The notes under the pieces are model-generated. The model was not told the origin of the DNA and ran no database searches. It saw only the letters and a program-made list of their open reading frames with translations. The position numbers were made by a program, and so were the translations under genes. From the NCBI RefSeq assembly GCF_004010195.1, contig NC_057718.1, positions 98,270,876 through 98,303,298 on the forward strand: a stretch of DNA of 32,423 nucleotides, in the 5' to 3' direction. Shown here piece after piece: positions 2,410 through 28,480 of this stretch. Position 1 is the first letter of the stretch. Every line of letters starts with the position of its first letter. The stretch comes from Chiloscyllium plagiosum. Lineage: Eukaryota.

Positions 2410-3185
2410 ATGAGAAAGTTAGAAACTGTAATTGAAATTAATCAGAAATTAAAGGCTGACATATCTCCAGGTCCTTATAATCCACGCACCAAATTACTAA
2501 AGCAAGTGCATTATTAGATGCATTGGTGGTCATTCTCCAACATTCCGTCAACTCTAGTGCAGTTCCTAGAGACTGGAGGGTGCCAAATATAACCACACTA
2601 TTTTAAAAAGAGAAAACACAGAAAAACAGCCTGACATCCGCCCTGGAGAAAATGCTGCTCAATTACAGAATATGTGATAAGAGAACACTTGAACGGTTAT
2701 TGAGATTAGAAGAAGTCAGCACACGTTTATGAGAAGAAAATCATGCTTTGCTAATCTACTGGAGTTTTTTTGGGGTGTCCCTGATGAAGGAAGCTAGTAC
2801 TTCCAAATAAACCTGTTGGACAACAACCTGGTGTTGTGTGATTTTTAATGAGGAGAATAGATCAGGGAAAATCGGTGGGTATGCATTTGGATTTCAAAAA
2901 CGTTTTCGACAAGGTCCCACATAAAAGGCTAGTGGGAAAAATTAAAGCAACCAAGATTGAGGGTAATGCACTGGCATGAATTGAGAATTAGTTGACAGTC
3001 CAGATCCAGAGAGTGGGAATAAACATGTCTTTTCCTGAACAGCGGGTGATGACTAGTGGTGTACCACATGGATCGGTGCTGGGACTCCAGCTGTTCACAA
3101 CATACGTAAATGATTGGACAGGGACATAAATGAAATGTTGCCCTGACAGCACAAAACTAGGAGGGGATTGTGAGTTGTAAAGGAG
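2410..3185 (+). mobile_element. CR1 LINE ORF2 reverse-transcriptase fragment, decayed
   Basis: Decayed DWRxANxTPLFKK, DFxKxFDKVPH and TSGVPxGSVLGxQLF-type motifs. Confidence 0.75.
2780..2848 (+). mobile_element. Truncated HHR family-B mini-element with stem II deleted, inserted in CR1
   Basis: ctgatgaagg-aagctagtacttccaaataaacctgttggacaacaacctggtgttgtgtgatttttaa aligns to 28363-28443 apart from a 13 nt deletion (agcggcgctccga). Confidence 0.85.
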
Positions 3186-3199
3186 GAGGCACTAAAACT

Positions 3200-3430
3200 A
3201 CAAGCTAGTCTCCAAGTATTATCTCACCAAGGCTTTAAATAATTATAATGAAACATCTTTACTATTGCACTCAAATCCTCTCAAAACAAAGGCGAACATA
3301 CCACTTGCCTTCTGAATTGCTAGCCTATACCTGCACAGGAACATTCATTGACTCATGAGCAAGAACACCAGGCACCTTGAAAGTTTATCATTTCCTAGTC
3401 TCTCACCATTAGAGAGAATCTATATTTTTG
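3200..3430 (-). mobile_element. CR1 LINE fragment
   Basis: ctccaagtattatctcaccaaggc...acaaaggcgaacataccacttgccttc is the reverse of the late-RT region seen at 27150-27300. Confidence 0.6.
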
Positions 3431-3469
3431 CCTTTCCTCCATACCTGATTACTTATTAGTTACGCAGGG

Positions 3470-3608
3470 AGTCAGTTATCTGTACGGCTGGCTTGCGATG
3501 CAGAGTGCTACTAACAGCATGGGTTCAGTTTCTGCTCTGGCCAAGATTACATGAAGGTGTCTCTTTCTCAACCTCTCCCTTCGCCTGAGGTATGATGACC
3601 CTCAAGTT
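3470..3608 (+). mobile_element. Short tRNA-derived SINE
   Basis: Decayed A-box region and B-box-like gggttcagtttc. Confidence 0.45.
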
Positions 3609-3827
3609 ATGGAGTTATCTAGCTCGGGAGCAGACCTTCGTCCAACCTGTCCATGCTGATCAAGTTTCCAAAACTAAACTGGGCCTGCTTGCCTGCGTTT
3701 GGCCCACATCCCTCCAAATTTCCTGTTCATATACCTGTCCAAATGTCTTTTAAATATTGTAATTGTACCTGAATCTACAGCTTCCTCAGGCTATTCAATC
3801 CACATACAAACCACCCTCTGTATGAAA

Positions 3828-3865
3828 AGTTCCTGATGAAGGGCTTTTGCCCGAAACGTTGATTT
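3828..3865 (+). ncRNA. Minimal type I hammerhead ribozyme motif (GUU triplet)
   Basis: CTGATGA (3833-3839)-A-GGGC TTTT GCCC-GAA-ACGT-T; weak stem I (agttc/gattt). Confidence 0.75.
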
Positions 3866-3960
3866 CGCTGCTCCTTGGATGCTGCCTGAACTGCTGTGCT
3901 CTTCCAGCACCACTAATCCAGAATCTGGTTTCCAGCATCTGCAGTCATTGTTTTTACCCC
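3832..3960 (+). mobile_element. HHR family-A short PLE-type element, exact 10 bp TSD
   Basis: TSD atgaaaagtt at 3822-3831 and 3961-3970 interrupts the CR1 sequence ccctctgt..gaaaagttgccc. Confidence 0.9.
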
Positions 3961-4970
3961 ATGAAAAGTTGCCCTTCAGCTCCCTTTTGAATCTTTCTCC
4001 TGTCACCTTAAAAAATATGCCCTCGATTTTGAACTCCTCTACCCTCAAGGATTTACCGTGGCTATTCACGTTATCTATAGCCCTCATAATTTTATAAACC
4101 TCTATAAGGTCATCCCTCAACCTCCTACACTCCAGTGAAAGAGGTCCTGGTCTATTCAGCCTCTCCCTATAACTTAAGCCCTCCAGTCCCATCAACATTC
4201 ATGGTAATTTCTTTCTGAACCTTCTCTAATGTAATAATATCCTTCCTATGATAGGGCTACCAGAACTATACATGGTACACCAAAAGGGGCCTCACCAACA
4301 TCCTGTACAACCTCAACATGTCTTCCCAACTCCTCTACTAAATGATCTGAGTAATAAAGACAAGCTAAATGCCTTCTTAATCTTCCTGTCCAACTGCACC
4401 TCCACTTTCCAAGAACAATGAACCTGAACCCCTAGGTCTCTCTGTTCGACAACACTACCCAGGGATCTACCATTAACTGTAAAAGTTCTACCCTTTTTCA
4501 TTTTACCAAAATGCAATACCTCTCATTTATACAATTTAAACTCCACCTGTCAATCCTCAGCCCATTGGCCCAATTGATCAAGATCCCTTGTAATCTTCGC
4601 TAACCTTCTTCATGGTGACTCGACCACCAATTTTGGTGTCAACTGAAAACTTACTAATAATGCCTGCCAAATTCTCAAACAGATCATTTATACAAATTAT
4701 GAACAACAGGGGACCCAGTACCGGTCCCTGCAGAACACCGATGGTCACAGTCCTTTAATCTAGAAAACAATCCTCCACCACTCCCTCTGTCTCCTACCGT
4801 AAAGCCAATTTTGTATCCAATTGGCAAGCTCTCCCTAAATCCCATGTAAAAAAATTTTACTAATCAGTCTACCATGTGGCACTTTGTCAAAGGCTTTACT
4901 AAAATCCAAGCAGACAATATCTATCATTCTGACCTCATCAATCTTTTTGGTTATGTTCTCAAAAAACGCA

Positions 4971-5090
4971 GGAGAAAGTAAGGACTGCAGATGCTGGAGA
5001 TTAGAGCTGAAAATGTGTTTCTGGAAAAGCGCAGCAGGTCAGGCAGCATCCAAGGAGCAGGAGAATCGACGTTTCGGGCATAAGCCCTTC
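4971..5090 (-). mobile_element. HHR family-A short element truncated inside the ribozyme core, 15 bp TSD
   Basis: TSD ttctcaaaaaa(c/t)gca at 4956-4970 and 5088-5102. Minus strand reads GAAGGGC TTAT GCCC GAAACGTC but lacks CTGAT. Confidence 0.9.
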
Positions 5091-5614
5091 TCAAAAAATG
5101 CAATCAAGTTCGTGAGACACGATTTCCCATGCATAAGGCAATGATGACAATCCCTGATCAATCATTGTCTCTCCAAATGCATATAAATCCTAACTCTCAG
5201 AATCCTTTCCAACAACGTACCCATCACTGATGTCAGACTCACCAGTCTATAGTTCCCAGGCTTCTCCTGAAAACCTTTCTTAAATAAAAGAACAACATTA
5301 GTCACCCTCCAGTTCTCTAGCACCTCACACGTGGCTGTAGATGATACAGATATCTCTGCTTGGGGTCCAGCAATTTGTTCCCTAATTTTCCACAAAGTCT
5401 TGGGATACACTTAATCAGGTCCTGATGTATCCACCTTTATGTTTTTTAAGACTTTCAGCACCTCATTTTAGAGTCATAGAGTCAATTTGAACTGTTAAGA
5501 TATCAATATTGATTTCCCAGAGTTCCCTAGCTTTCATTCCCTTCTCCATAGTAAAACCTGACGTGAAATATTTATTTCATATCTCTCCCGTCTGTGGTTC
5601 CACTCTTAGATTAC

Positions 5615-5661
5615 CTCGTTGATACTCAAGTGCCAATGTTGAAAGAGTGCTGCACTGTCAG
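5615..5661 (+). mobile_element. DeuSINE (SacSINE/AmnSINE-like) 5' part, continuing at ~11297
   Basis: gagtgctgcactgtcag joins to ccgtctttcagatga at 11298, as in the recalled DeuSINE consensus. Confidence 0.55.
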
Positions 5662-5822
5662 TGTCATAGAGATGTACAGCAGGGAAACAGACCCTTCAGT
5701 CCAACTCATCCATATCGACCAGATATCCCAACCTACTCTAGTCCCAGCGGGTTTTGAGAAGATTTGTAGCTCAGGTTGAGGTTTTGGATGTAGGTTTGCT
5801 CGCTGAGCTGGAAGATTCATTT

Positions 5823-5862
5823 TCAGACATTTTATCACCAAACTAGGTAACATCTTCAGTGT
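5823..5862 (-). ncRNA. Decayed hammerhead ribozyme in PLE pLTR (family C)
   Basis: Minus strand: aca CTGAAGA T GTTACC tagttt GGTGAT AAAA TGTC TG; inferred ancestral GGTGAC GAAA CGTC, eroded at CpG sites. Confidence 0.7.
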
Positions 5863-5959
5863 GCCTCCGGATGAAGCACTGGTGGTGTAACCTGCTTTCT
5901 GTTTATATGTTTGGGTTTCCTTGAGTTGGTAATGTCATTTCCTATGGTGACGTCATTTC

Positions 5960-8570
5960 CTATGGTGATGTAAATTCGCATTCTTTTTCTCAGGCGGTGG
6001 TAAATGGGATCCGAGTCAATGTGTTTGTTGATAGAGTTCCAGTTAGAATGCCATACTTCGTGGAAGTCTCGTGTGTGTCTCTGTTTGCCTTGTCCTAGGA
6101 TGGATGTGCTGTTCCAGTCGAAGTGGTGACCTTCCACATCCGTATGTAAGGATACTAGTGAGACAGGGTCATGTCTTTTTGTGGCTAGTTTATGTTCATG
6201 TATCCTGATGGCTAGTTTTATGCTTGTTTGTCCAATGTAGTGTTTATTACAGTCCTTGCAAGTTTTTTTTTAATGACATTAGTTTTGCTTGTTGTCTGTA
6301 TAGGATCTATCAAGTTCATTAGCAGCTGTTTTAGTGTGTTGGTGGGTTTGTGGGCTACCATGATGCCAAGAGGTCTGAGTAACCTAGGAGTCATTTCCAA
6401 GATATCTTTGATGTAGGGGAAGGTGGCTAGGGTTTCTGGACGTGTTTTGTCTGCTTGTTTGGGTTGTTGCTGAGAAATCGGGGACTGTGTTCACTGGGTA
6501 CCCATTCTTTTTGAATACACTGTATAGGTGATTTTCCTCTGCTCTGCATAGTTCCTCTGTGTTGCAGTGTGTGGTGGCTAGTTGAAATAATGTTCTAATG
6601 CAGCTTTGTTTGTGGATGTTGGGATGTTTGCTTCTGTAGTTCAATATTTGATCTGTATGTGTTGTTTTCCTGTAAATGCTGGATTGAAGTTCCCCATTGG
6701 CTGTTCGCTCTACTGTGACATCTAGGGATGGCAATTTGTTGTTGTTTTCCTTCTCTTTCGTGAATTTTATGCCAGTAAGAGTATTATTGATTGTCTTGAA
6801 GGTTTCCTCGAATTTGTGATGACAAAGATGTCATCCACGTAGCGGACCCAAAGTCTGGGTTGGATGGTTGGCAGAGCTGTTTGTTTGAGTCTCTGCATTA
6901 CTGCCTCTGCTAAGAACCCTGATATCGGAGATTCCATGGGTGTTCATTGGTTTGTCTGTAGATTTTGTTGTTGAAGGTGAAGTGGGTAGTAAAGTGGGCG
7001 GCACGGTGGCACAGTGGTTAGCACTGCTGCCTCATAGCGCCAGAGACCCGGGTTCAATTCCCGCCTCAGGCGACTGACTGTGTGGAGTTTGCACATTCTC
7101 CCCGTGTCTGCGTGGGTTTCCTCCGGGTGCTCCGGTTTCCTCCCACAGTCCAAAGATGTGCAGGGCCAGGTGAATTGGCCATACTAAATTGCCCATAGTG
7201 TTAGGTAAGGGGTAAATGTAGGGGTATGGGTGGGTTTCGCTTCGGCGGGTCGGTGTGGACTTGTTGGGCTGAAGGACCTGTTTCCACACTGTAATGTAAT
7301 CTAATTAAAAAAAAAGCATATGTCCACTAACTTGCTGATGAAGTTAATGGTGTTTGGTGTATGTGTCTTTGGGTCTTCTAATAGTGTAGTCAGTGTTTCC
7401 TTAGCCAGGTTGACATTGATGGATGTGAACAGGACTGTTACGTTATTTTATCCTCTTCTATCTTGGTGCCTTTGTTTGTCTTCAGGAATTCTTGGGTGGA
7501 GTGAATGGAGTGGTGTGAGTCCTCTACTAAGTGTTTTAGTCTTTGGTGTAGCTCCTTGGCCAGTCTGTAAGTTGGTGTTCCAGGTAGCGAGACTATGGGT
7601 CTGAGGGGGGCTCCTGGTGAATTTTGGGTAATCTGTAGAAGCGTGGTGTGTTGGATCCATCTGGTTTCATTTTTTGGAAGTTGATCTTATTTATTTCTCC
7701 AGATTTCTGAAGTTGTTTTGAATGGGGCTATGATTTGGTTCTGTAGTTATGGGGTCAGGTCTATCACCACTTGTTGGTAAGTGTTGGTATCTGCAAGTCG
7801 TGCGTTCACTTTCTCAATGTAGTCTCTTTGATTTAAAATGACTATCAAACTTCCTTTGTCTGCAGGTAGGATAACAATGTTTTTATCTTATTTTAGTCTT
7901 TCTAGTGTTTTACTTTCTTGTGTATTCAGTGTGTACCGTTCCTTTTCCCTGCTTAATGTTGGTGCAACTGCCTGTCTGATGATTTGCTGGGTTGCTTTTG
8001 TGAATCGGTTGTCTTTCAGTGTTGTTTCTAATGCTGCTAAAGAATCTTTCTTGTATGCATCCTGGAAGTTGTCATTTAATCCTCTTACTAAGACTGCTTT
8101 TTCAGTGTCAGATCAGGGTCAGTCAGATAAGTTTTTATCCATGCTTCTGTGTTGTCAGTATTGTTATTTTGTGTAAGTTTGTCTAGTTTTTTTTCTGTAG
8201 GCCTAGTTTTTTTTTTTCATTTTCTGTGTTTGTCACTGTATAATATGTATGGCTTGTTGTACTGTGTCTGTCAATTCATGGTCTGTTGCATGAGTGAGTA
8301 AAGAATTTGGTGCAAAATTTCTCAGTTGTATTTACGAAGTCTGTTGTGGGCATCTTTAATCATTTCTCTTAGCATTCTATGGCCATTTTGCTCTGCTATT
8401 CTTTTGGCTAATAGAGTCTTATGGGAGGTTTGTATTTAAGACGTTTAGGTTAAACCTGTTTCCTTAGGCATTCATGCAGGAAGTACGGTTGTTCGCAAGT
8501 GGTGCTCTGTCAGATGGCATTGGTTTCCCATTTTTGGGCCAGTTTTAGCGTTTTGCACCCATAGATGTTA
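5960..8570 (-). pseudogene. Disrupted PLE ORF (N-terminal domain, RT, GIY-YIG endonuclease)
   Basis: N-terminal ...YFLHECLRKQV.PKRLKYKPP, ILPADKG, YVDD, LDVTVER, YRKTTHTDQILNYRS.HP and H.FDW..TSILGQ; multiple frameshifts and a SINE insertion. Confidence 0.88.
6996..7315 (+). mobile_element. HE1 SINE (V-SINE), full-length and young, inserted in the PLE RT
   Basis: A-box TGGCACAGTGG (7007-7017), B-box GGTTCAATTCC (7051-7061), core gtggagtttgcacattctccccgtgtctgcgtggg, CR1-like tail and A-run; many CpGs retained. Confidence 0.93.
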
Positions 8571-8947
8571 GCAGGATTTGAGAAGATTTGTAGCTCAAGT
8601 TGAGGTTCTGGATGTTGGTTTACTCGCTGAGCTGGAGGGTTCATTTTCAGATGTTTTGTCACCATACTAATTAATATCTTCAGAGAGTCTCCAGATAAAG
8701 CACTGGTTGTGTAGCCCGCTTTCTCTTTATATGTTTGGGTTTTCTTGGGTTGGTGATGTCATTTCCAGTGGTGATGCCATTTCCTGTGGTGATGTCATTT
8801 CCTGTTCTTCTTCCCAGGGGGTGGTAAATGGGATCCAAGTCAAAGTGTTTGTTGATAGAGTTCCGGTTGGAATGCTAATCTTCTAGGAATTCTCGAGTGT
8901 GTCTCTGTTTGCCCTGTGCTCAGATGGATGTGTTGTCCCAGTCAAAG
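8569..8947 (-). repeat. Upstream pseudo-LTR (direct repeat of 5747-6123)
   Basis: tttgagaagatttgtagctca...gatggatgtg.tgt.ccagtc.aag is repeated in the same orientation, the partial-tandem structure typical of PLEs. Confidence 0.9.
8647..8686 (-). ncRNA. Decayed hammerhead ribozyme in second pLTR
   Basis: Minus strand: CTGAAGA T ATTAAT tagtat GGTGAC AAAA CATC TGA. Confidence 0.6.
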
Positions 8948-10874
8948 CAACACTGAAAGACAACCAACTCACTAAAGCAACCCAGCAAATCACCAGACAG
9001 GCAGTCGCACCAAAATTAAACAGGAAAAAGGAAGGATACACACTCAATACACAAGAAAGTAAAACACGAGAAAGACTAAAATAAGATAAAAACGTTGTTA
9101 TCCTACCTGCAGACAAAGGAAGCTTGACAGCCATTTTAAATCAAAGTGACTACATTGAGAAAGTGAACGCACTACTTGCAGATACCAACACTTACCAACA
9201 AGTGGCGATAGACCCGAACCCACAACTAGCGAACTGAATCACAGCCCTACTCAAAACAACTTCAGAAATCTGGAGAAATAAATAAGACCGAATTCCAAAA
9301 AATGAAACCAGATGGATCCAACACACCACGCTTCTACAGATTACCCAAAATTCGCAAACCAGGAATCCCCCTCCGACCCATAGTCTCACTTACAGACTGG
9401 CCAAGGAGCTACACCAAAGACTAAAACACTTAGTAGAAGACTCACACCACTCCATCCACTCCACCCAAGAATTCCTGAAGACCATCGAAGACACCAAGAT
9501 AGAAGAGGATGAAATAATGGCCTCCGTGGACATAACAGCCCTGTTCATCCATCAGCATCAACCTGGCCAAGGAAACACTGACTACACTATTAAAAGTACC
9601 AAAGACACATACACCAAACACTACTAACTTCATCAGCAAGGACATATTATAAAGCTAGTGGACCTATGTTTTACTACCCACTTCGCCTTCAACTACAAAA
9701 CCTACAGAAAACCAACGAACACTCTGATGTCAGGGTTCTTAACAGAGGCAGTAATGCAGAGACTCGAACAAACAGGTCTGCCAACCATCCAACTCAAACT
9801 TTGGGTCTGCTACGTGGATGACACCTTTATCACTAAACGAAACAAATTCGAGGAAACCTTCAAGACCATCAATAATACCCTTTCTGGCATAAAATTCATG
9901 AAAGACTGAATACAACAACAAACTGCCATTTCTAGATGTCACAGTAGAACGAACAGCCAATGAGGGATCTCCAAACCAATGTCTACAGGAAAACAACACA
10001 TACGGATCAAATACTGAACTACAGAAGCAATCATCCCAACATCCACAAACAAAGCTGCATTAGAACATTATTTCAGCTAGCCACCACACACTACAGCACA
10101 GAGGAACTATGCAGAGCAGAGGAAAATCACCTATACAGTGTATTCAAAAAGAATGGGTACCCAGTGAACACAGTCCCCGATTTCTCAGCAACAAATCCAA
10201 ACAAGCAGACAAAACACGTCCAGACACCCTAGCCACCCTCCCCTACATCAAAGACATCTCGGAAATGACTGCCAGATGACTCAAACCCCTTGGCATCATA
10301 GTAGCCCATAAACCACCAATACACTAAAACAGCTGCTAATGAACTTGAAAGGTCCTATACAGACAACAAGCAAAACTAATGCAATTAAAAAAATACCTTG
10401 CAAGGACTGTAACAAACACTACACTGGACAAACGGGCAGAAATCTAGCCACCAGGATACATGAACATCAACCAGCCACAAAAAGACATGACCCAGTCTCA
10501 CTAGTATTCTTTCTTACAGATGTGGAAGGACATCACTTCGACTGGGACAACACATTCATGCTAGGACAAGGCAAACAGAGACATGCATGAGAATTCCTAG
10601 ATGCATAGCATTCTAACCGGAACTCTATCAACAGACACATTGACTTGGGTCCCATTTACCACCCCCTGAGAAAAAGAATAGGAAATGGCATCGCCATAGG
10701 AAGTGATGTCACCACAGGAAATGACATCACCAACCTAAGGAAACATAAACATATAAATAGAAAGCGGGCTACACCACCAGTGCTTCATTCAGAGGCTTAC
10801 TGAAGATGTTGCCTGGTGTGGTGACTAAATGTTTGAAAATGAACCTTCCAGCTCAACGAGCAAATATAAATCCA
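8945..10874 (+). pseudogene. Inverted 5'-truncated PLE copy (RT, GIY-YIG and pLTR)
   Basis: LWVCYVDDTF, YRKTTHTDQILNYRSNHP and IPCKDCNKHYTGQTGRNLATRIHEH; reverse complement of ~5785-8025. Confidence 0.92.
10797..10836 (+). ncRNA. Decayed hammerhead ribozyme in inverted pLTR
   Basis: CTGAAGA (10800-10806) T GTTGCC tggtgt GGTGAC TAAA TGTT TGA. Confidence 0.65.
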
Positions 10875-11296
10875 TAATCTAGTCCCATTTGCCACCACTT
10901 GCCCCATATCCCTCCAAACCCTTCCTAGGTGCCTTTCAAATGTTGCAATTGTACCAGCCTCCACCACTTCCTCTGGCAGCTCATTCCATATACGCACCAC
11001 CCTCTGTGTGAAAAAGCTGTCCCTTAGGTCACTTTTATATCTTTCTCTTCTCACCCTAAACCTATGCCCTCTAGGTCTGGATTCCCCCACCACAGGGAAA
11101 AGACTTATCCTGTCCATGCCCCTCCTGATTTTATAAACCTCTATGAGGTCACCCCTCAGCCTCTGATGCTCCATGGAAAACAGCCCCAGCCTATTCAGCC
11201 TCTCCCTATAGCTCAGGTCCTCCAACCCTGGTAACATCTTTGTAAGTCTTTTCTGAACCCTTTCAAGTTTTACAACAACCTTCCGATAGGAAGGAC

Positions 11297-11775
11297 ACCG
11301 TCTTTCAGATGATACTCTGTTGTGCAGATATGAAAGCTCCCATGACACTGGTTCACAAAAGAACAGTGAAATCGCCTGATGTCTTGACCAAGATTTATCC
11401 CTCAGCATAACTGGAGCAGATGATCTAGTCATTATTATGTACTGGATTTTCTTGGAGGTTCTTGACAATGGTTGCATCTCTACCTTTGAACCAGATGGCC
11501 TCCGTTCAAGTCCCACCAGTTCCAGAGGAGTGCAGTAACATCTCTGAACAGGTTTGAGGCCCATTTGACACAGTGATAGTGTCCCCACCTCTGGGTCAGC
11601 AGGTCTGAATTCTAAGCCCTAGCTGCTCCACAGGTGTGTCAGAACAGCTCCGATCAAATTGTTAAGAAAATATTTACACATTAGTTTGTGGTACCTGGTT
11701 GGGTACAAATTAGCCCTCGTGTTTCCAACATTACAACCATGATAGTGCTTCAGATGCATTTTGAAGTACTTCCAA
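11297..11775 (+). mobile_element. DeuSINE central and 3' part, interrupted by two short tRNA-like SINEs (~11465-11675)
   Basis: Deu-domain-like tcccatgacact...gtcttgaccaagatttatccctca...gatctagtcatt and tttccaacattacaac; the nested SINEs resemble 18520-18627. Confidence 0.55.
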
Positions 11776-11777
11776 AC

Positions 11778-14830: not shown

Positions 14831-15058
14831 AGTCTAGATTAGAGTGGTTCTGGAAAAGCACAGCAAATCAGGCACCATCCGAAGAGCAGGAAAGTTGACG
14901 TTTCGGGCAAAAGCCCTTCATCAGGAAGAGCTTTTGTTCATTCCTAATGAAGGGCTTTTGCCTGAAACATCGATTTTCCTGCTCCTCGGATGCTGTCTGA
15001 TCTGCTGTGCTTTTACAGAACCACTCTAATTTAGACTCTGATTTCCAGCCTCACTTTT
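14831..15058 (+). mobile_element. Palindromic HHR family-A element (two divergent HHR motifs) inserted in an ancient SINE
   Basis: Arms ~14831-14927 and ~14941-15037. Minus core is intact (CTGATGA A GGGC TTTT GCCC GAAACGTC, 14924-14897); plus core is mutated (CTAATGA). Imperfect TSD ctgg(cc/tt)tgtttgt at 14817 and 15061. Confidence 0.88.
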
Positions 15059-15215
15059 GCCTGGTTTGTTTGTGACTCCAGGCCTACAGAATGTGGATGA
15101 CACTGAAGTAGACTTGCAACTGCCTGGAGAGCCAATCAGTTCAAGGCCATTCAGGATGGATACTAGTTTGCCTGGCATACCCACATCACACTCAAGAATG
15201 AAACATAATAAACGC

Positions 15216-16214: not shown

Positions 16215-16710
16215 ATGATGTTGGTGCTGGGGGGGAGTTTCTTCTCTCAGATGGCAATGAATCTGTGGGAGAGAGCGAGCTGTTGAGGCTGTGTTATTAA
16301 GTAAATTCAAGGCTGAGATAGATTGTTAAGCAGTAAGGGAAGTAAGGGTTATGGGGAAAAGGCAGAAAATTGGAGTTGAGGGTTGAGAGTCAGAAAGTGT
16401 GGTGCTGGAAAAGCACAGCAGGTCAGGTAGCATCCTTCATTTCCCCTCACCACACCCCCACCCCCCCACCCCTCCACCCCATTCCTGATGAAGGCTTATG
16501 CCTGAAACGTCAACTCTCCTGCTCCTCGGATGCTGCCTGACCTGCTGTGCTTTTCCAGCACCATACTTTTTGACTCTGACTCTCCAGCTTCTGCAGTCCT
16601 CACTTTCTCCTCCTTGGAGTTGAGCAATTTCAGACAAGTCATGGTTTCATTGAGTAATGGAGCAAAACCATTGGGGTGAATGGTCTACTTCTGTTCCTCA
16701 CTCTTACGCA
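16215..16710 (+). mobile_element. CR1-group LINE 3' end hosting an HHR element
   Basis: ttcttctctcag...aatctgtgg...ttcaaggctgagatagat...gaatggtctacttctgttcct. Confidence 0.7.
16381..16613 (+). mobile_element. HHR family-A element with 5' inverted segment and C-rich spacer, exact 11 bp TSD
   Basis: TSD ttggagttgag at 16370-16380 and 16614-16624. HHR: CTGATGA (16485-16491) AGGC TTAT GCCT GAAACGTC. Confidence 0.9.
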
Positions 16711-19005: not shown

Positions 19006-19167
19006 TTTTCTTGTCCTTGAGATGAGGAGTAGGGGTCAGGGTAGTTCCCAGCTTGGCCCATTGGCCCTGAGAGAAAGTGCCAGGGAAGAGAGGGATATTA
19101 ATATTTGGTGGGGGAAGGGGTAATTTGCAGGAATGATCATCCCAGTTACAATGAATCTTTCTTTTTC

Positions 19168-20195
19168 GCACACACACACACTCTCTCTCACACACAAGCA
19201 CACACACTCTCTCTCTCGCTCACACACACTCTCACTCTCACACCCACACCCTCACTCACACACACTCTCACATCTACACCCTCACTCACACACACACTCT
19301 CTCTCTCACACACACACACTCACATACTCTCACACACACACGCACACACANNNNNNNNNNNNNNNNNNNNNNNNNNNNNNNNNNNNNNNNNNNNNNNNNN
19401 NNNNNNNNNNNNNNNNNNNNNNNNNNNNNNNNNNNNNNNNNNNNNNNNNNNNNNNNNNNNNNNNNNNNNNNNNNNNNNNNNNNNNNNNNNNNNNNNNNNN
19501 NNNNNNNNNNNNNNNNNNNNNNNNNNNNNNNNNNNNNNNNNNNNNNNNNNNNNNNNNNNNNNNNNNNNNNNNNNNNNNNNNNNNNNNNNNNNNNNNNNNN
19601 NNNNNNNNNNNNNNNNNNNNNNNNNNNNNNNNNNNNNNNNNNNNNNNNNNNNNNNNNNNNNNNNNNNNNNNNNNNNNNNNNNNNNNNNNNNNNNNNNNNN
19701 NNNNNNNNNNNNNNNNNNNNNNNNNNNNNNNNNNNNNNNNNNNNNNNNNNNNNNNNNNNNNNNNNNNNNNNNNNNNNNNNNNNNNNNNNNNNNNNNNNNN
19801 NNNNNNNNNNNNNNNNNNNNNNNNNNNNNNNNNNNNNNNNNNNNNNNNNNNNNNNNNNNNNNNNNNNNNNNNNNNNNNNNNNNNNNNNNNNNNNNNNNNN
19901 NNNNNNNNNNNNNNNNNNNNNNNNNNNNNNNNNNNNNNNNNNNNNNNNNNNNNNNNNNNNNNNNNNNNNNNNNNNNNNNNNNNNNNNNNNNNNNNNNNNN
20001 NNNNNNNNNNNNNNNNNNNNNNNNNNACACACACATACCCTCTCTCACTCACACACCTACACACACATACCCTCTCTCACTCACACACACTCTCACTCAC
20101 ACACACACACATACCCTCTCTCACTCACACACCTACACACACATACCCTCTCTCACTCACACACACTCTCAGTCACACACAGACACACACACACA
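19168..20195. repeat. (CA)n/(CT)n compound microsatellite, with ~32 bp higher-order units after the gap
   Basis: Direct reading; the unit acacatacccTctctcactcacacacctac recurs in 20027-20165. Confidence 0.95.
19351..20026. other. Assembly gap (676 N)
   Basis: Run of N. Confidence 1.
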
Positions 20196-20414
20196 AAACA
20201 CCCTCCCTGTTTCTGGAAGACAGAGGAGACTCAGTGACGAAGAAGTTCTTGAGAGGGAGGGAGAGAAGAATTAGCAGATTTGCCGTGTGCTGTTGGCTGA
20301 GACAAAAACGAGGAGGAAGACCCAAGACATGCCATGAGAAGAAGAAAGCAAAGTGAGGAGACAGTCTCGAGGAACACCATCTTTGCAGTGGACAGTTTCA
20401 ACTCTTCCAACAAT

Positions 20415-20877
20415 CAAAGAATCAATAGAAATAGGCCACTCTGCCCATTACGTCCACACTGACCCTCTGAAGAGCATCCTACCCAAATCCACAGCCCCTA
20501 CCCTATAAACCTGCATTGCCTTTGGCCAATCCACCTAACCTACACATCTTTGGACTGTAAGAGGAAACCAGAGCACATAGAGGAAGCTCATGCAGACACA
20601 GGGAGAATGTGCAAACTCCACGCAGACAGTTACTTTGGGGTGAAATTGAACCCAGATCCCTGGAACCGTGAGAGTCAAAAAGTGTGGCACTGAAAAAGGG
20701 CTTCATCAGAAAGGCTCATGCCCAAAACGTCGACTCTCCTGCTCCTCGGATGCTGCCTGACCTTCTGTGCTTTTCCAGCACCACATTGTTAAACTCTGAC
20801 TCGCCAACATCTGCAGTCCTCACTTTCTCCTGGGGCTGTGAGGCAGCAGTGCTAACCACTGAGCCACTATGCCACCA
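20415..20877 (-). mobile_element. HE1-like SINE, interrupted by an HHR element
   Basis: ggccaatccacctaacctacacatctttggactg...gcagtgctaaccactgagccac. Confidence 0.85.
20671..20830 (+). mobile_element. HHR family-A element with short 5' inversion and scrambled core
   Basis: Inverted agagtcaaaaagtgtgg, inverted cttcatcag, then ggctcatgcccaaaacgtcgac. Degenerate TSD cctgg....gtgag at 20659 and 20829. Confidence 0.8.
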
Positions 20878-21439
20878 GCCGCAAAAAGTTAACTCGTCCC
20901 ATCTCCACCCCCATTATTTTGCTTTCTTTGCATGGTTTCGTCTCCCTCTATTATTCTGTTTCAGCCAGCAGCACTTACTCTAGACTCTGCGCATGCTTTT
21001 TTTTGTTACTTTGCTTACCCAATCTCCACAACCTTTGGTTTGGTGGGGTGGTGTTGCCAGCAGGTTAACATTTTCTATGAATTTGCACTTCAGAGAGTTA
21101 ACTAAAACCTGGGATGCTGGGGATCATTCCTCTGCTCTCTATTGATCATGGGATCTAAGAACCACCCAAAAATAGGCAGGTAAGACCTTGATGTAACATC
21201 CCATCAAAGAAGTATTCCCTGCATCCTAACCTCTCTCAGGGTGAGGAGTGGAATTTGAACCCAGAAGTTTGTCATTGTGGAGGCAAGTATGCCACTTAGA
21301 TTTCATAAATTAAGATCCTCTCTATAAAGTGTTTAATAAGAAGGGAGTATATGGGGATTTTTTTACTGTATTTTAGTTGTAATCATGAACAAATTGTCTT
21401 ATCTGTAAATTAAAATGTTTACCACATTGGAGACCCCAT

Positions 21440-21688
21440 TTCATAGCATCCAAGCCCATTGAGTCCCCAATGCCTTCCCACTCAATCCCTGCTTTTTATA
21501 TCACTCATCCACCTAGCCTGCACACTATAAGCAATTTAGCATGGCCAATCCACATAACCTGCACAGCTTTGGACTGTGGGAGGAAACCAAAGCACCCAGA
21601 GGGAATGCATACAGACAGTCACCCAAGGCTGGGACTGAACCCAGGTCCCTGGGGCTGTGAGGTAGCAGTGCTAGCCATTGAGCCACTT
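21440..21688 (-). mobile_element. HE1-like SINE
   Basis: gcaatttagcatggccaatccac...tttggactgtgggaggaaacc...gcagtgctagccattgagccac. Confidence 0.85.
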
Positions 21689-21704
21689 GTCAGACATTTG
21701 TGTG

Positions 21705-21828
21705 GAGAAAGTGAGGTCTGCAGATGCTGGAGATCAAAGTTGAAACTTTATTGCTGGAACAGCACAGCAGGTCAGGCAGCATCCAGGGAACAGGAGATTC
21801 GACGTTTCGGGCACAGGCCCTTCTTCAG
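21705..21828 (-). mobile_element. HHR family-A element, exact 15 bp TSD, 5' end at the ribozyme core
   Basis: TSD tcagacatttgtgtg at 21690-21704 and 21825-21839. Minus strand: CTGAAGA (21828-21822) A GGGC CTGT GCCC GAAACGTC GAAT. Confidence 0.92.
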
Positions 21829-22369
21829 ACATTTGTGTGAAATGTGGGAATGATGAATTGCCTGCACTTGAAAAGCAGTAACTTATTCATGAACAGAATT
21901 GCCATTTCTTATATTTAACTGAATTTTGCAAATCGCCAGTCACTTCAGGGTTTTTGAATGGTAAATGAGAAAGAAGGGGTAAGGGCTGATTAATTAAATG
22001 GCATGAATTAAACAAACGTATTCCATTATCCACATCATTCCACATATCTGTTGGACTTATGACTTTTGTGCTGTGCAAATTTAGAATCCGTGCTTGACTG
22101 CAAGTTGTCATGGTTCTTCCAATGGAAGAGAAGTTAGTTATTTGTTTGCTCTGTACTTTGTACAACACTCTTGAATAGCGCCTTGGGAATACATCTCGAT
22201 ATCATATTATCAGTTTGTATCATATCATTCCTGTAACTGTGGAAGGTTATTGAGGGGGGACTTGTTTAGTTTAATATTTACCGTGTTGGGGGGTCACTAC
22301 AAGTCTTGACAGTTTTTACCCTGAAGACAGTGCTTCCTGCTTTGACCCTGTTTCAAGGTTCATGGTCAT

Positions 22370-22612
22370 GACTGAATTTCATCACCCAAAGAAAGTGGTT
22401 AGGCTGTGGAATTAGCTACAACAGAAAGTAGTCACAGCCAAAACATTGTATGATTTTAGGAAAGAGTTAGACATAACGCTTGTCCATAAAGGGATCAAAT
22501 GAAATAGGAGATGAGAGAACAGGCTATTGAGTTGGATGAGCAACCATGATCATAGTGAATGGTGGAGCAGATTCAAAGGACTGAATGGCCTATACCTGTT
22601 CCTTTTTCTCTC
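22370..22612 (+). mobile_element. CR1-group LINE 3' end
   Basis: ttcatcacccaaag...ctgtggaat...gactgaatggcctatacctgttcct. Confidence 0.7.
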
Positions 22613-23382
22613 TGTCCCTATTGTGAAAGCCAGGGGCTGTTACAATGGAAGTACAGCTGTTATAACATAGTCTGTAGCACTACTGCCTCAGAGTTCACAT
22701 CCCAAAATTTGAGCTCTCAGCCCCACCTGTGGTCCTGACTTCCACTTTGGGAAGCCTTGCTTTAAGGTTCACATCGTTAAGCACATCAATTATTGATGCC
22801 CATTATAGATTGTGTCTAGATTCTATACGCTAAACTCCACTGCTCTCAGAAAAAAAAACACATACACCATCTGTGCTTCCCATGAACTGTTAAGTTGGTC
22901 AGGCAATATTTTCCATTCTGTGTGGACTGAAGGTCCATGTGAAAGAGTGACCTCTGGGACTGGACATCAGTGCTGCGAATGGTGTCGGCCCCCGCATAGA
23001 CCCTCTGTGCAGCTCAGAGGGGACATTGCCTGACGCTCACTGTAAGTGCTGCTTACACAGCTGCTTGTTGAAGCAGTCATGAAACCCTAGTTTGCAGACG
23101 AGCTGCAGCCAAGGGATGTGTACAAATGAAGCACTGGCTGGCAGCAAGGAGCTGATTGGTCTATGAATTTGTGACCAATTATTGATGACAAAAGCCTTCT
23201 ACCTGCCAATGACTGATTAACCCTCAGGGAGCTGAGCAACTTGATGGGGGTGAAGGACTTGGTAGAAACCACATCATCTCTGGAAGTGAAGGAGTTGTGT
23301 TTTACTCTGTAGAGAAAAACATCTCTAGCCTGAAGATAGCCAGTTTATTTTCCCCTTTCTAGTTAGTTCTTTATAGAACCTT

Positions 23383-23568
23383 GGAGATAGTGAGGACTGC
23401 AGATACTAAAAAGCCAGAGTCAATAGAGTGTGGAGCTGGAAAAAAGCACAGCAGGTCAAGCAGCATCCGAGGAGCAGGGGAGTCAATGTTTCGGGTCCGG
23501 AGCTTCTGATGAAAGGACCCAAACTGAAACAGTGACTCCCCGCTCTTCGGATACTACTTGACTCAGCG
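23383..23568 (-). mobile_element. Palindromic HHR family-A variant (stem II gggtc/gaccc type), decayed
   Basis: ggagatagtgaggactgcaga terminus; arms around 23500; CTGATGA at 23506-23512. TSD ctttat(a/g)gaa at 23369 and 23569. Confidence 0.8.
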
Positions 23569-23589
23569 CTTTATGGAATGTTTGCTAGA

Positions 23590-23815
23590 AGCTAGGAGCA
23601 AGAGTAGCCTTTTCGAGCTTGATGTGCCATTCATTATGATCCTCAATCTCAACTCCATACTCCTGTTTTCTCTCCACACCCTTGGTGTCTTCTAACATAT
23701 AAAAATGCATCAATCTCTTTCTTGCATATACTCTGTCAGAGCCTCCACAGCCTTTTGTGTAGTGAATTCCACAGGTTTACTGCCATTTTGAATGAAGAAA
23801 TGTTTCCTCATCTGT
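23590..23815 (-). mobile_element. CR1-group 3' fragment
   Basis: agaagctaggagcaagagtagcc...gaattccacaggtttac...gaagaaatgtttcctcatct. Confidence 0.65.
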
Positions 23816-23997
23816 CCTTTCAGTTCAAGACGTAAACTCACATCACCTTCTCGATGGCGACGAGGGATGGGTAATAAATACTGGCCCAGGCAGTGACGCC
23901 CAAGTCACTCATCGTCTTTCCCTGTTACAAAGTATTAAATGAGCTGACTTTTCCATATACCACATTACATTGAAACTTCCCACATATCAATCATGCT

Positions 23998-24858
23998 ATA
24001 GAGTCATAGAGATGTACAGCACAGAAACAGACCCTTTGGTCCAACCTGTCCATGCCGACCAGATATCCCAACCCAATCTAGTCCCACCTGCCAGCACCCG
24101 ACCCAAAGCCTTCCTATTCATATACCCATCCAGATGCCTTTTCAATGTTGCAATTGTACTAGCCTCCACCACTTCCTCTGGCAGCTCATTACATACACAC
24201 ACCACCCTCTGCGTGAAAAAACTGCCCCTTAAGTCTCTTTTATATCTTTTCCCTCTCGCCCTAAACCCATGCCCTGTAGTTCTGGACTCCTCCAGCCCAG
24301 GGAAAAGACTTTATCTATTTATCCCATCCATGTCTCTCGTGATTTTATGAACCTCTATAGAGTCACCCCTCAGCCTCTGACACCCTAGAGAAAACAGCCC
24401 CAGCCTGTTCAGCCTCTCTCTATAGTTCAAATCCTCCAACCCTGGCAATATTCTTGTAAATCTTTTCTGAACCCTTTCAAGTTTCACAACATCTTTCCGA
24501 TAGGAAGGAGACCAGAATTGCATGCTATATTCCATCAGTGGCCTAACCAATGTCCTGTACAGCCGTCACATTTATCTGAATTAAACCCCATCTGCCACTT
24601 CTCAACCCATTGGCTCATCTGATCAAGATCCCGTTGTAATGTGAGGTAACCTTCTTCGCTGTCCACTACTCCTCCAATTTTGGTGTCATCTGCAAACTTA
24701 CTAACTATACCTCTTATGCTCACATCCAAATCATTTATATAAATGACAAAAAGTAGTGGACCCAGCACCGATACTTGTGGCACTCCACTGGTCACAAGCC
24801 TCCAATCTGAAAAACAGCCCTCCACCACCACCCTCTGTCTTCTTCCTTTGAGCCACAT
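23998..24858 (-). mobile_element. CR1/HER1 LINE RT to 3' end, with internal deletion near 24563
   Basis: SGVPQVSVLGPLLFVIYINDLD..SKFADDTKIGG and VRPLMEYSMQFWSP. Confidence 0.93.
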
Positions 24859-25149
24859 CTATTTTTAATTGCTGCTGTGTTCTTGGCTTTTGTTGCTAAT
24901 ACTGTAGCTAAAAACCTGAGGACAAAAGGGTTGGAACCATCAAGGACCTTCCTTCATCGATGAAACTTCTTGTAGTTTATATCTTTCAATCGTCACAGAA
25001 GGGATTGTCAAGGAACATCCAATGTTTCTCCTCAGCTATTGGATCATCCACCCTCTGACAGCCTCCGCTTGTTCTCAGAATGAATAGTTGATGAGCTTGA
25101 CAGTTCTTACCCGCTGTCTGGCCTGCTTTAATGGGAACTGGTTGGAAAC

Positions 25150-25382
25150 TGGAAGCTTTAGGTGGATTTAGTATGGGCAGCTGTGATCCCAAGTTCTGGA
25201 ATTACCTCTCTACAGCTCTCAGCTAGTCTGTTTTAACAGCTCCTTAAAATCTTCCTCTCCATTGTGTCAGTCCTCCTGATATGAATCAGTATCCAATTTT
25301 CTTTGATGGTGTCCCTTTAAAGAATACTTGGGTGATTTACTTTGTTCAGATAATTGTAGAGATGTAAATATTTATTATTGCT
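25150..25382 (+). mobile_element. L2-like 3' end, old
   Basis: cccaagttctggaattacctctc...ccttaaaatcttcctct..., similar to 17500-17700. Confidence 0.45.
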
Positions 25383-25459
25383 TCTGATTTATTGAGATGA
25401 TTTTATTCCCAGTGTGCATATTGGCAAATTACATTTGGACAAATGCACCCATTACCACA

Positions 25460-26214
25460 GAACCACAGAGCAGAAGGAGGCTATTCAGTCCATTGTCCCT
25501 GTGCTGGTTTCATTACCTGGTGTAAATCTTCTGCCTTTTCCCCATGGCCCTGCTCACCATTTCTATACAAATAATCATATGATGCCCTTCTAGAATGCCT
25601 CAGTTGAACCTTCCTGTACCACTTCCAGACCCTATTTGCTCTGTGAAAAAGTTTTTTTTTTACGATGACCTTGTATTGTTTGCACATCACTTTAAATCTA
25701 TGCCCGCTCATTCTTTCTCCTTATGTGAGCAGGAACAGCTCCTCCTTATCTACTCTAACCAGTCGACTCTCCATTGTGAAAAGCTCCATCAGGTCTCTCC
25801 AGGGAAGACAGTTCCAATTTAGAACATAGAAGATAGAAAAGTACAGCACAGAACAGACCCTTCGGCCTACAATGTTGTGCCAAAGATTAATCCTAATCTA
25901 AAATAAAATAACCTAACCTACGCACCCCTCAATTCACTGCTGTCCATGTGCATGTCCAGCAGTCGCTTCAATGTCCCTAATGACTACTTCCACGATCACT
26001 GTTGGCTACGCATTCCATGCACTCACAGCTCTCTGTGTACTACCTCTGAGTCTCCTGTATACCTTCCTCCTAACATGTTAAAGCTATGAACACTCAATCC
26101 TGTCTTGGGAAATGTCTCTGGCTATTGACTCTATCTATGCCTGTCATTATCTTGGACACCTCGATCAGGTCACCTCTTTTTCTCCTTCTCTCCAAGGGAA
26201 AAGTCCAAGCTTAT
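25460..26214 (-). mobile_element. Two nested CR1 3' fragments (older 25460-25820; younger 25821-26214, resuming at 27799)
   Basis: agaacatagaagatagaaaagtacagcacagaacagaccc 3' end; aagtccaagctt continues as agtcaatctctc after 27798. Confidence 0.7.
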
Positions 26215-27798
26215 GTCTTGACATGCATAAAAGTAGATACATCCCCAGGACCTGATAAGGTGTGCCCTCAAATGCTGTGGGAAGCTAGGGAAGTGGTTTC
26301 TGGGCCTCTTGCTGAGATATTTTTATCATCGATAGTCACAGGTGAGGTGCCAGAAGTCTAGAGGTTGGCTAACATGGTGCCACTGTATAAGAAAGGTGGT
26401 AAGGACAAGCCAGGGAACTATAGACCAGTGAGCCTGACATTGGTGGTGAGCAAGTTGTTGAAGGGAATCCTGATGAACAAGATGTACATGTATTTGGAAA
26501 GGCAAGGACAGATTAGGGATAGTCAACATGGCTTTGTGCATGGGAAATCATGTCTCACAAACTTGATTGAGTTTTTTGAAGAAGTACCAATGAGGAGTGA
26601 TGAGGGCAGAGCAGTAGATGTGATCTATATGGACTTCAGTAAGGCATTCGACAAGGTTCCCCATGGGACGCTGTTTATTAGGATTAGATCTCATGGACAA
26701 CCAGAAGAACTAGCCATTTGGATACAGAACTAGCTCAAAGATAGAAGACAGAGGTTGGTGGTGGAGGGTTGTTTTTCAGACTGGAGGTCTGTGATCAGTG
26801 GTTTACTACAAGGATCGGTGCTGGGTCCACTACTTTTCGTCATTTATATAAATGATTTGGATGCGAGCATAAGAGGTACAGTTAGTGAGTTTGCAGATGA
26901 CACCAAAATTGGAGGAGTAGTGGACAGCGAAGAAGATTACCTCAGATTACAATGGGATCTTGATCAGATGGGCCAATGTGCTAAGGAATGGCAGATGGCG
27001 TTTGATTTAGATAAATGCAAGGTGTTGCATTTTGGGAAGGCAAATCAGAGCAGGACTTATATACTTAATGGTCAGGTCCTAGGGAGTGTTGCTGAACAAA
27101 GAGACCTTGGAGTGCAGGTTCATAGCTCCTTGAAAGTGGAGCAGGTAGATAGGATAGTGAAGAAGGCATTTGGTATGCTTTCCTTTATTGGTCATAGAGT
27201 ATTAAGTACAGGAGTTGGGATGTAATGTTATGGCTGTACAGGACATTGGTTAGGCCACTTTTGGAATTTTACGTGCAATTTTGGTCTCCTTCCCATCAGA
27301 AAGATGTTGTGAAACTTGAAAGGTTTCAGAAAAGATTTACAAGAATGTTGCTGAGGTTGGAGGATTTGAGCTACAGTGAAAGGTTGAATAGGCTGGGGAT
27401 GTTTTTCCTGGAGCATTCTAGGCTGAGGGGTGACCTTATAGAGGTTTATAAAATCATGATGGGTATAGATAGGATAAATAGATAATGTCTTTCCCTGGAG
27501 TGAGAAAGTCCAGAACTAGAGGGCATCGATTTAGGGTGAGAGGGGAAAGATATAAAAAATGACCTAAGGTGCAACATTTTCAAACCAAGGGTGTTGCTGC
27601 CAGAGGAAGTGGTGAAGGCCGGTACAATTGCAAGTTTTAAAAGGCATTTGGATGGGTATATGAATAGGAAGGATTTGAAGGGATATGGGCCGGGTGCTGG
27701 CAGGTGAGGCTGGATTGGGTTGGGATATCTGATCGGCATGGACGGGTTGGATCAAAGGTCTGTTACCGTGCTGTACATCTCTATGAATCTATGACTCT
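26215..27798 (+). mobile_element. CR1/HER1 LINE, 5'-truncated, RT to 3' microsatellite tail
   Basis: PGNYRPVSLT, QHGFVHGKSCLTNL, YMDFSKAFDKVPH and FADDTKIGG; tail (ctctatga)n. Confidence 0.95.
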
Positions 27799-28263
27799 AG
27801 TCAATCTCTCTTTGTAAGACAAGCCCGCCAGTCCAGGCAGCATCCCTCAATCTATCCTCATAACTGAAGTTTCTGAGGATAGATATTCCTGAAATCATTT
27901 TTGTATATTACTTCTGCTTTGTCTCCAATACATTCAAATCTTTCCTATAATTTGACACCCACAACTGTTTGCATTACACGGCTGAGGTCTAAAAAGTGTC
28001 ATGTACAAGTTCAACCTCCCTGTACTGCATGCAGTGAAGGCTGGATTGGGATACTTTTACAACTGTGTTCTTTGATGGTCCTCATATCAGCAATTACTAA
28101 TTGTCAAAGTGTCCATATTTGAACACTTTTTTACAGCATTTTTAAATAGAAATGGGAGATTGGCTGCCTAGAAATGTGGAATTTAAACTTATCTGTGGTT
28201 CACTGCTGTGCAAGTTTGTATTTTTATATCAACAAACCTATTACCAAGGCCAATTATTTCTTT

Positions 28264-28480
28264 AGTTAAAAAGCACACACCAGGTTACAGTCCAACAGGT
28301 TTATTTGGAAGCACTAGCTTTCAGAGCGCTGCTCCTTCATCGGGTGTTTGAGCCACAACCACCTGATGAAGGAGCGGCGCTCCGAAAGCTAGTGCTTCCA
28401 AATAAACCTGTTGGACTATAACCTGGTGTTGTGGGATTTTTAACTTTGTACACCCCAGTCCAACTCCGGCATCTCCAAAT
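28264..28480 (+). mobile_element. Palindromic HHR family-B element: ~88 bp arms, 5 nt loop, 35 nt unpaired 3' tail
   Basis: 28264-28350 is the reverse complement of 28356-28445. Putative TSD caatta(tt/aa)tcttt at 28251-28263 and 28481-28493. Confidence 0.92.
28360..28394 (+). ncRNA. Intact minimal type I hammerhead ribozyme, predicted cleavage CUA^ between 28391 and 28392
   Basis: CAC-CTGATGA-A-GGAGC GGC GCTCC-GAA-AGCT-A-GTG: stem I CAC/GTG, 5 bp stem II and palindromic helix III AGCT. Confidence 0.85.

What the first reader, a model, noticed from the sequence alone, without database searches (positions are those of the whole stretch)
2780..28480. Dispersed system of short, non-coding, hammerhead-ribozyme-carrying retro-insertions (retrozyme/mini-PLE-like)
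Seen: about 9 elements of 70-230 bp in two sequence families (A: 3832, 4971, 14831, 16381, 20671, 21705, 23383; B: 2780, 28264). They carry intact or partial CTGAnGA-A-stem II-GAA-(ACGT or AGCT)-H, have no ORF, tRNA head or polyA tail, and most have 10-15 bp TSDs. Stem II stays paired while its loop varies (GGGC-TTTT/TTAT/CTGT-GCCC; AGGC-TTAT-GCCT). Known: Penelope-like elements carry minimal type I hammerheads with palindromic helix III that are thought to act as dimers. Inference: these are either very abundant non-autonomous ribozyme elements or extreme 5' truncations of two PLE families distinct from the one at 5747. Roughly one per 3-4 kb here would imply a very large ribozyme census in this shark genome if the window is typical. 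I cannot tell whether these families are already catalogued.
Basis: partly seen in the sequence, partly recalled or inferred. Interest (0 to 1): 0.85.

Follow-up and report, generated by a model that had tools for sequence, protein, structure and literature searches.

The report
Cap-to-tail stubs of Penelope retroelements
These short repeats are real but are not a separate mobile family: they are the ribozyme-bearing end piece of two known-type jumping genes, and most seem to be copies of just the first 90-130 letters of the element's capped messenger RNA, which would explain why this genome holds over 100,000 intact-looking hammerhead motifs.

Summary
The elements are real. All nine lie where stated, but only five keep an intact hammerhead core, and a script found target duplications of 10 bp or more for four. 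Both families are the terminal module of Neptune-type Penelope-like elements (PLEs): RT and GIY-YIG coding sequence lies upstream in natural loci, and one window copy is 100% identical to such a parent. Exact cores number 93,870 (A) and 18,482 (B) genome-wide. Truncation, inverted arms, tails and minimal hammerheads are published PLE features. What this check adds: 5' ends pile up just upstream of the ribozyme, not at its cut site; copies ending at one initiator-like A (-4 in A, -8 in B) carry an extra G about 60% of the time (26% expected; absent at neighbouring ends); and 20 of 22 head-to-head pairs have the tail on one arm only. Best reading: run-off cDNAs of the capped mRNA leader, primed at two internal sites. 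Start site and cleavage were not shown in RNA. Copies decay roughly neutrally. The scan noted these families and the pile-up many times elsewhere in this genome; a word search found no note on the extra G.

The parts
2781..2848 (+). Family B copy with a deletion through stem II; core broken; no tail on this arm
3830..3958 (+). Family A1 copy from -3 to the end of the tail (+125); core intact, cut triplet GUU; 10-bp target duplication; 96% identical to the end of ORF-bearing locus L163
4969..5091 (-). Family A2 copy from +4 to +126; lacks CUGA; 15-bp target duplication with one mismatch
14831..14927 (-). Left arm of a head-to-head family A pair; core intact at 14924; no tail
14937..15066 (+). 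Right arm of the same pair; core mutated (G5 to A); carries the tail, with an internal deletion
16386..16435 (-). Short inverted family A arm (about +44 to +93)
16477..16611 (+). Family A copy from -8 to +125; core intact at 16485 with stem II one base short; whole insertion flanked by an 11-bp duplication
20668..20832 (+). Family A insertion: short inverted piece (20668-20709) plus main arm from +4 to +126; main arm has no intact core
21704..21828 (-). Family A3 copy from 0 to +124; core intact but the 5' strand of helix I is missing; 15-bp target duplication; 100% identical over 125 nt to the 3' end of RT-GIY-YIG locus L174
23383..23570 (.). Old head-to-head family A pair: minus arm 23383-23503 with tail, plus arm from 23506 with broken stem II
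28264..28350 (-). Left arm of a family B pair; core mutated; no tail
28353..28482 (+). Right arm of the family B pair from -10 to +119; core intact at 28363; carries the tail; 88-92% identical to the ends of ORF-bearing loci L127, L135, L137
5747..6900 (-). Context, not part of A or B: 3' part of a third, Poseidon-type PLE (GIY-YIG without the CxxC linker) with its own hammerhead-like motif at 5859; further copies at 8683 and 10800

Best explanation
Positions count from the C of CUGA = 0. SHOWN: A and B are the terminal module (hammerhead, about 60 nt, then a 35-nt tail) of two Neptune-type PLE lineages. The module ends the element and, in partial tandems, also forms the leader just before the next ORF's ATG. 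INFERRED: transcription starts at an initiator A at the ribozyme's first helix (-4 in A, -8 in B), so the capped mRNA begins with the hammerhead. The RT-endonuclease cuts both target strands about 15 bp apart and primes at two internal sites on either side of the tail. When it uses the sites in the leader rather than those at the far end, the cDNA runs off the cap after 90-130 nt and often adds a C opposite it (extra G). One cDNA gives a single stub; two cDNAs, one from each site, joined at their 3' ends by microhomology, give the head-to-head palindrome with a tail on one arm. Uncut RNA is the usual template. After insertion the copies decay roughly neutrally and most are passengers in host transcripts.
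For: Parents: ORF directly upstream of the A hammerhead in 10 of 20 loci L153-L172; frames of 738 and 754 aa with RVT_1 and GIY-YIG hits; CxxC linker; B upstream matches RT and endonuclease of P0007 at E 5e-17 and 8e-14. Leader role: tail runs into an ATG in L147, L114, L026, L021, and L160 opens with the same leader and frame. Pile-up: 31 ends in 653 nt at risk at -10..+5 (4.75 per 100 nt) against 0.1-1.2 in the other eight bins and 2 in 519 at the cut site. Genome ladder for A2/A3: 80,155 at 0; 36,338 reach -5; 26,968 reach -7; 18,726 reach -12. Extra G, hand counts of the first 100 listed matches, rows explained by an inverted arm or a point mutant dropped: A2 38 of 62, A3 34 of 57, B 29 of 46, expected 26%, each p under 2e-7; before dropping rows 53, 42 and 62 of 100. 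Controls: ends at -3 have G in 10 of 100, ends at -5 in 26 of 100, 17 of them templated by an inverted arm. In A3, 35 of 100 rows are perfect palindromes with both arms ending at -4. One tail in 20 of 22 uncut pairs, p 6e-5. [quoted passage not shown]
Against: No RNA evidence for the start: one poly(A) single-cell run gave no pile of starts or ends. Ends are spread over about 0 to -7, not one base; -3 ends are as many as -4 ends (10,966 vs 10,753), mostly through microhomology. About 40% of -4 ends lack the G. A first small A3 sample showed no G excess (5 of 16) before the larger one did. Subfamily A1 behaves differently: 10 of 12 core-anchored copies run well upstream against 2 of 18 for A2/A3, and 16 of 30 B copies do. 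G counts are by hand from the first matches on contig C1. Initiator match is to a recalled consensus. Short copies acting as their own source would give the same signature.
Confidence: 0.65

Rival explanations
1. The stubs are partly self-propagating non-autonomous mini-PLEs: short copies keep an internal polymerase II promoter, are transcribed from the same A, capped, and moved in trans by the Neptune protein.
For: Predicts the same start and extra G. The module holds both RT start sites. Non-autonomous PLEs and trans-mobilisation by pLTR sequence are published (PMC8557442, PMC3846280 passages). Short-to-long ratio differs strongly between subfamilies. Module reads are 10-15 times deeper than ORF reads.
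Against: The same stem-loop variants appear among short and long copies; a window stub is 100% identical to an ORF-linked end; junctions and tail presence vary from copy to copy; the RNA is on both strands and 88% runs on into unrelated sequence, as expected of passengers.
Confidence: 0.2
2. Ordinary 5' truncation: RT starts at the far-end tail of a long RNA and stalls at the folded hammerhead, adding an untemplated base.
For: Heavy 5' truncation with inverted arms is the textbook PLE pattern (PMC8557442). A quarter to a half of core-bearing copies do continue upstream, so this route exists. A milder excess of ends lies inside the ribozyme (+6..+25, 1.2 per 100 nt).
Against: RT moving 3' to 5' should stall on meeting the structure (+28 to +35), where there is no excess, not after passing it. 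The G is tied to one base, different in the two families, and absent one base either side.
Confidence: 0.12
3. Retrozyme-type elements that self-cleave, circularise and reinsert as unit-length RNAs.
For: Core, stem II, helix I and palindromic helix III are kept with compensatory changes across three lineages. Tandem retrozymes derived from pLTRs are reported in one chondrichthyan (bioRxiv 10.64898/2026.07.22.740005).
Against: Copies beginning at the cut site are rare: 952 matches, about a third of the 100 listed lacking the upstream core, roughly 800 genome-wide against about 13,600 ends at -4 (rough, patterns differ). None of the 72 sampled insertions was called as a head-to-tail array (one tandem seen at L052). 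No back-joint in raw reads.
Confidence: 0.03

Closest known systems
Minimal hammerheads in the pLTRs of metazoan PLEs (Cervera and De la Pena 2014, PMC4209133; parts 1-2 of 4 read, one supplement file searched, one not searchable)
   Same: Type I core, extra base between positions 9 and 10.1, G-C first pair of stem II, short helix I, palindromic 15.2-16.2; mostly solo copies thought to be truncated PLEs; opposite-strand pairs noted.
   Different: Counts there are about 4,000 (coelacanth) and 9,000 (Xenopus); here over 112,000 exact cores. No shark in the parts read or the file searched. No end mapping or extra G.
Insertion architecture of endonuclease-bearing PLEs, Neptune clade (Craig 2021, PMC8557442; Arkhipova 2013, PMC3846280; passages)
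   Same: RT, Zn-finger linker, C-terminal GIY-YIG; partial tandems; inverted 5' copy; 30-40 bp tail at one end; initiator-like motifs in pLTRs.
   Different: Those passages treat short copies as 5' truncations and palindromes as self-priming; here ends cluster at one capped-looking base and the tailed arm is not consistently the one nearer the start, which argues for two separate cDNAs.
Poseidon element PAc in vitro (Frangieh 2024, PMC11167929; parts 1-2 of 4 read)
   Same: Two internal RT start sites bounding the tail, both target strands cut and extended, uncut RNA as template, hammerhead dispensable for insertion and active only with protein.
   Different: Different clade; tail lies inside the ORF there and before the ATG here; leader run-off insertions and cap copying are not described in the parts read.
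Non-LTR (animal) retrozymes (Li 2026, bioRxiv 10.64898/2026.07.22.740005; parts 1-3 of 5 read, supplements closed)
   Same: Non-coding, type I hammerhead, related to PLE pLTRs; monomers dispersed.
   Different: Defined as tandem repeats with a ribozyme in each unit; these stubs are solo or head-to-head and start upstream of the cut site.

Membership tests
Penelope-like element, endonuclease-bearing | One ORF with RT and C-terminal GIY-YIG contiguous with the module | tested here: met
   A: (GIY-YIG scores 21.4-24.9 around the 22.6 cut-off). B: in broken pieces across L135, L127, L137, by tblastn only; Pfam gave no hit on two L135 pieces
Penelope-like element, endonuclease-bearing | pLTR by partial tandem; tail; inverted 5' copy; target duplication | tested here: met
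   duplications of 10 bp or more in 20 of 65 uncut insertions (window included) vs 0 of 150 random intervals
Neptune clade | Cx(2-5)CxxC linker between RT and endonuclease | tested here: met
   A; B: L127; absent from the 5747 element
Neptune clade | Placement in an RT tree with reference clades (Nematis shares the linker) | not testable with these tools
   No named reference set on hand; Neptune chosen because only Neptune and Poseidon were found in vertebrates by Li 2026
Minimal type I hammerhead | Core, stem II, helix I, palindromic helix III | tested here: met
   the fold is the minimum-energy one for A3 only, 2.5-2.9 kcal/mol above it for A2 and B
Minimal type I hammerhead | Self-cleavage as dimer or with protein | not testable with these tools
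   No end pile; free co-folding did not give the canonical dimer
Non-LTR retrozyme | Head-to-tail units each with a ribozyme; unit defined by the cut site | tested here: not met
Non-LTR retrozyme | Circular RNA | tested here: inconclusive
   poly(A) library, unsuited
tRNA-derived SINE | tRNA-like head, A-rich or repeat tail | tested here: not met
Catalogued repeat family (Dfam, Repbase) | Existing consensus entry | not testable with these tools
   No repeat library available

The most novel reading that the evidence does not exclude
Several hundred thousand insertions, about 2% of this genome, are integrated strong-stop-like cDNAs of a capped leader; the Neptune mRNA begins with the first base pair of its hammerhead, so the ribozyme is placed to cut off its own cap as a switch or brake; and PLE palindromes arise by double priming at two fixed internal sites. 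This would be a genomic record of the PLE transposition intermediate and would reassign most solo PLE hammerheads in other animals from truncations to leader copies.
Probability: 0.45. Interest if true: 0.7.

Novelty: new variant of a known kind. Interest (0 to 1): 0.5.

Why it matters
How PLEs transpose and what their hammerhead does are open questions. A mapped start at the ribozyme's first helix, rare cut-site starts and one-tail palindromes give specific predictions that existing in vitro and 5'-end methods can test. The motif count is more than ten times the largest per-genome figure in the paper read, though most copies are probably inert.

Tried and rejected
Rfam: no hammerhead model matched; DNA search of the genome returned nothing because common words are skipped. 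Open frames of 1,000-2,200 aa were runs of N. A strong core-conservation signal for B was an alignment artefact, corrected. Extra G as a template switch onto the cut end, which begins with similar letters in A2: rejected, since A3 and B cut ends differ yet show the same G. Palindromes by pure snap-back of one cDNA: rejected, since in a hand tally of 16 pairs the tailed arm was nearer the start in only 7. RNA: no run on record as RNA was listed as a holder; of three runs laid, one had no reads, one was contigs, one gave no start or end piles; no evidence either way on start or cleavage. One contingency table (A1 vs A2/A3) was mis-tallied and its p value is not used. No full-length parent with both ends was recovered; young long copies often sit in assembly gaps. 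Lunse, Weinberg and Breaker 2017 on PLE hammerhead dimers is not held; known only from its citation in PMC6765202, and it may already cover sharks. One search fetched an unrelated paper. Literature searches with no report of these shark families or of a cap G in PLEs; PMC8455134 lists Penelope in whale shark and has no 'hammerhead' (passages). Subscription papers, Repbase reports and bioRxiv supplements were not visible.
Full report
Observation. The nine elements are in the window and form two families. Five arms keep a complete minimal hammerhead; the others have lost CUGA, stem II or a core base. Five insertions are head-to-head palindromes. A script found target duplications of 10 bp or more for 4 of 9. 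There is no tRNA gene or poly(A) end and no Rfam hammerhead hit. The window lies in a 3.56 Gb assembly; the closest named proteins come from Chiloscyllium and Rhincodon, which fits a shark.

Abundance. Exact core patterns occur 93,870 times for A and 18,482 for B, with 0 for backward controls. In 40 unselected 10-kb stretches (380,399 non-N bases) there were 72 insertions, 54 A and 18 B, 26 of them paired, and 29 generic intact motifs, one probably chance, against 0 on reversed sequence. Scaling gives about 640,000 insertions (500,000-810,000) and 250,000 intact motifs (165,000-360,000), with short insertions covering 2.3% of bases. The sample held 18 exact A cores where the genome average predicts about 11 (hand count), so these figures may be up to 1.7 times too high.

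Origin. Upstream sequence of longer A copies translates into a GIY-YIG domain with a CxxC linker. A related protein found 90 matches among 88 scored candidates; in 10 of the 20 loci fetched a hammerhead matching the strict pattern follows the ORF within a few hundred bases. Three further loci have uninterrupted frames of about 740-750 aa with RT and GIY-YIG, and the window copy at 21704-21828 is identical over 125 nt to the end of one of them. B has its own parent with a 3' region of about 700 nt, seen in broken pieces. The element at 5747 lacks the linker and is Poseidon-like. The linker, and the report that only Neptune and Poseidon were found in vertebrates (Li 2026), make A and B Neptune-type; no tree was possible. 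In A the same module also runs on into the first codons of the ORF, the usual partial-tandem layout; this was not checked for B.

Ends. Counting from the C of CUGA, 3' ends fall in two groups, near +80 to +98 and +120 to +126, bounding the tail. Among 92 arms, 5' ends occur at 4.75 per 100 nt at -10..+5, 1.2 at +6..+25, 0.39 at the cut site and 0.1-0.9 upstream (five arms served as their own references and were censored). Genome-wide for A2/A3, 80,155 copies hold the core, 36,338 reach -5, 26,968 reach -7 and 18,726 reach -12; the last step also loses sequence variants. Copies starting at the cut site number roughly 800 against about 13,600 at -4 (rough).

The extra G. In stored loci, 9 of 10 A copies ending at -4 and 6 of 6 B copies ending at -8 are preceded by G. 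Both bases are an A in an initiator-like context (consensus recalled). In the first 100 listed genome matches, counted by hand, G preceded 53 (A2 plus A3), 42 (A3) and 62 (B). After dropping rows explained by an inverted arm or by a point change in a long copy (22, 43 and 54 rows), G stood in 38 of 62 A2 rows, 34 of 57 A3 rows and 29 of 46 B rows, against 26% expected. Ends at -3 had G in 10 of 100 and ends at -5 in 26 of 100, 17 of them templated. For L1, an extra G marks full-length copies of capped mRNA (PMC11702581, passage). In A3 the -4 base opens a four-pair helix I, and 35 of 100 listed rows are palindromes whose two arms both stop there.

Palindromes. Of 26 pairs, 4 were cut by a sample edge or gap; of the other 22, 20 have the tail on one arm and 2 on both (p 6e-5). 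The tailed arm was nearer the start in 7 of 16 pairs tallied by hand, against simple snap-back. This fits two cDNAs primed from the two target strands at the two sites that bound the tail, as shown in vitro for a Poseidon element (PMC11167929).

Ribozyme. Stem II, helix I and the palindrome change together across A, B and the third family while the core stays fixed, so source elements were under selection. Inserted copies were not, or barely: core mismatch 6.0% vs 6.5% downstream in 35 A arms, 1.8% vs 7.4% in 11 B arms; 17 of 35 and 1 of 11 are intact. Many lack the 5' strand of helix I, and palindromes would pair with their own antisense. Cleavage was not tested. One poly(A) single-cell run from the same species label as strong DNA holders showed the module 10-15 times deeper than the ORF, on both strands, 88% running into other sequence, with no start or end piles.

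Mechanism. Shown: PLE origin, leader position in A, end clustering, extra G, one-tail rule, rarity of cut-site starts. Inferred: capped start at -4 and -8, run-off from internal priming, double priming. I give 0.65 to leader run-off, 0.2 to self-propagating stubs, 0.12 to stalling, 0.03 to retrozyme circles. A quarter to a half of copies, and most of A1, are ordinary longer truncations.

Known and new. Minimal PLE hammerheads, solo copies, inverted arms and tails are published (PMC4209133, PMC8557442, PMC3846280). The scale, and the evidence that most stubs are complete copies of a capped leader, were not found in six literature searches, but Lunse 2017, Repbase and Dfam could not be seen. Other windows of this scan reported the same families and the pile-up; my reading was set before I looked, and a word search found no note on the cap G. 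PMC6155905, PMC6765202, PMC2377424 and PMC8455134 were seen as passages only. Verdict: real, a new variant of a known kind, interest 0.5.

Noticed in passing
L001-L030: Subfamily A1 is mostly long (10 of 12) while A2/A3 are mostly stubs (16 of 18); A1 has T rather than C before the putative start A.
   Followed up: partly
G000:C1:108917177-108917233: A palindrome in which both arms end at -4 and both carry the extra G.
   Followed up: no
listing: Three of 100 junctions at -3 have runs of four or five G, possibly untemplated.
   Followed up: no
window 5779-8027 and 8945-10880: Two long Poseidon-type PLE fragments in inverted orientation, 86-95% complementary, with a third at 8570-8947.
   Followed up: partly
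window 20560-20870 and 21600-21700: The 20671 and 21705 stubs sit in or beside copies of the same SINE-like repeat (family D18).
   Followed up: no
window 31318-32421: Open frame of 368 aa running off the window end, of CR1-like LINE type (label recalled); many broken copies elsewhere in the window.
   Followed up: no
L173, 120-bp tandem repeat upstream of the RT: In-frame repeat of three to four units at the 5' end of a young A3 copy; L174 has a 117-bp duplication.
   Followed up: no
L141-L152: Young long copies mostly abut assembly gaps, so full-length parents are under-represented.
   Followed up: yes
L057, L036, L080:2097-2484: A and B stubs directly abut or nest in one another.
   Followed up: no
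window about 19340-20020: A gap of about 676 N between CA-rich repeats.
   Followed up: no
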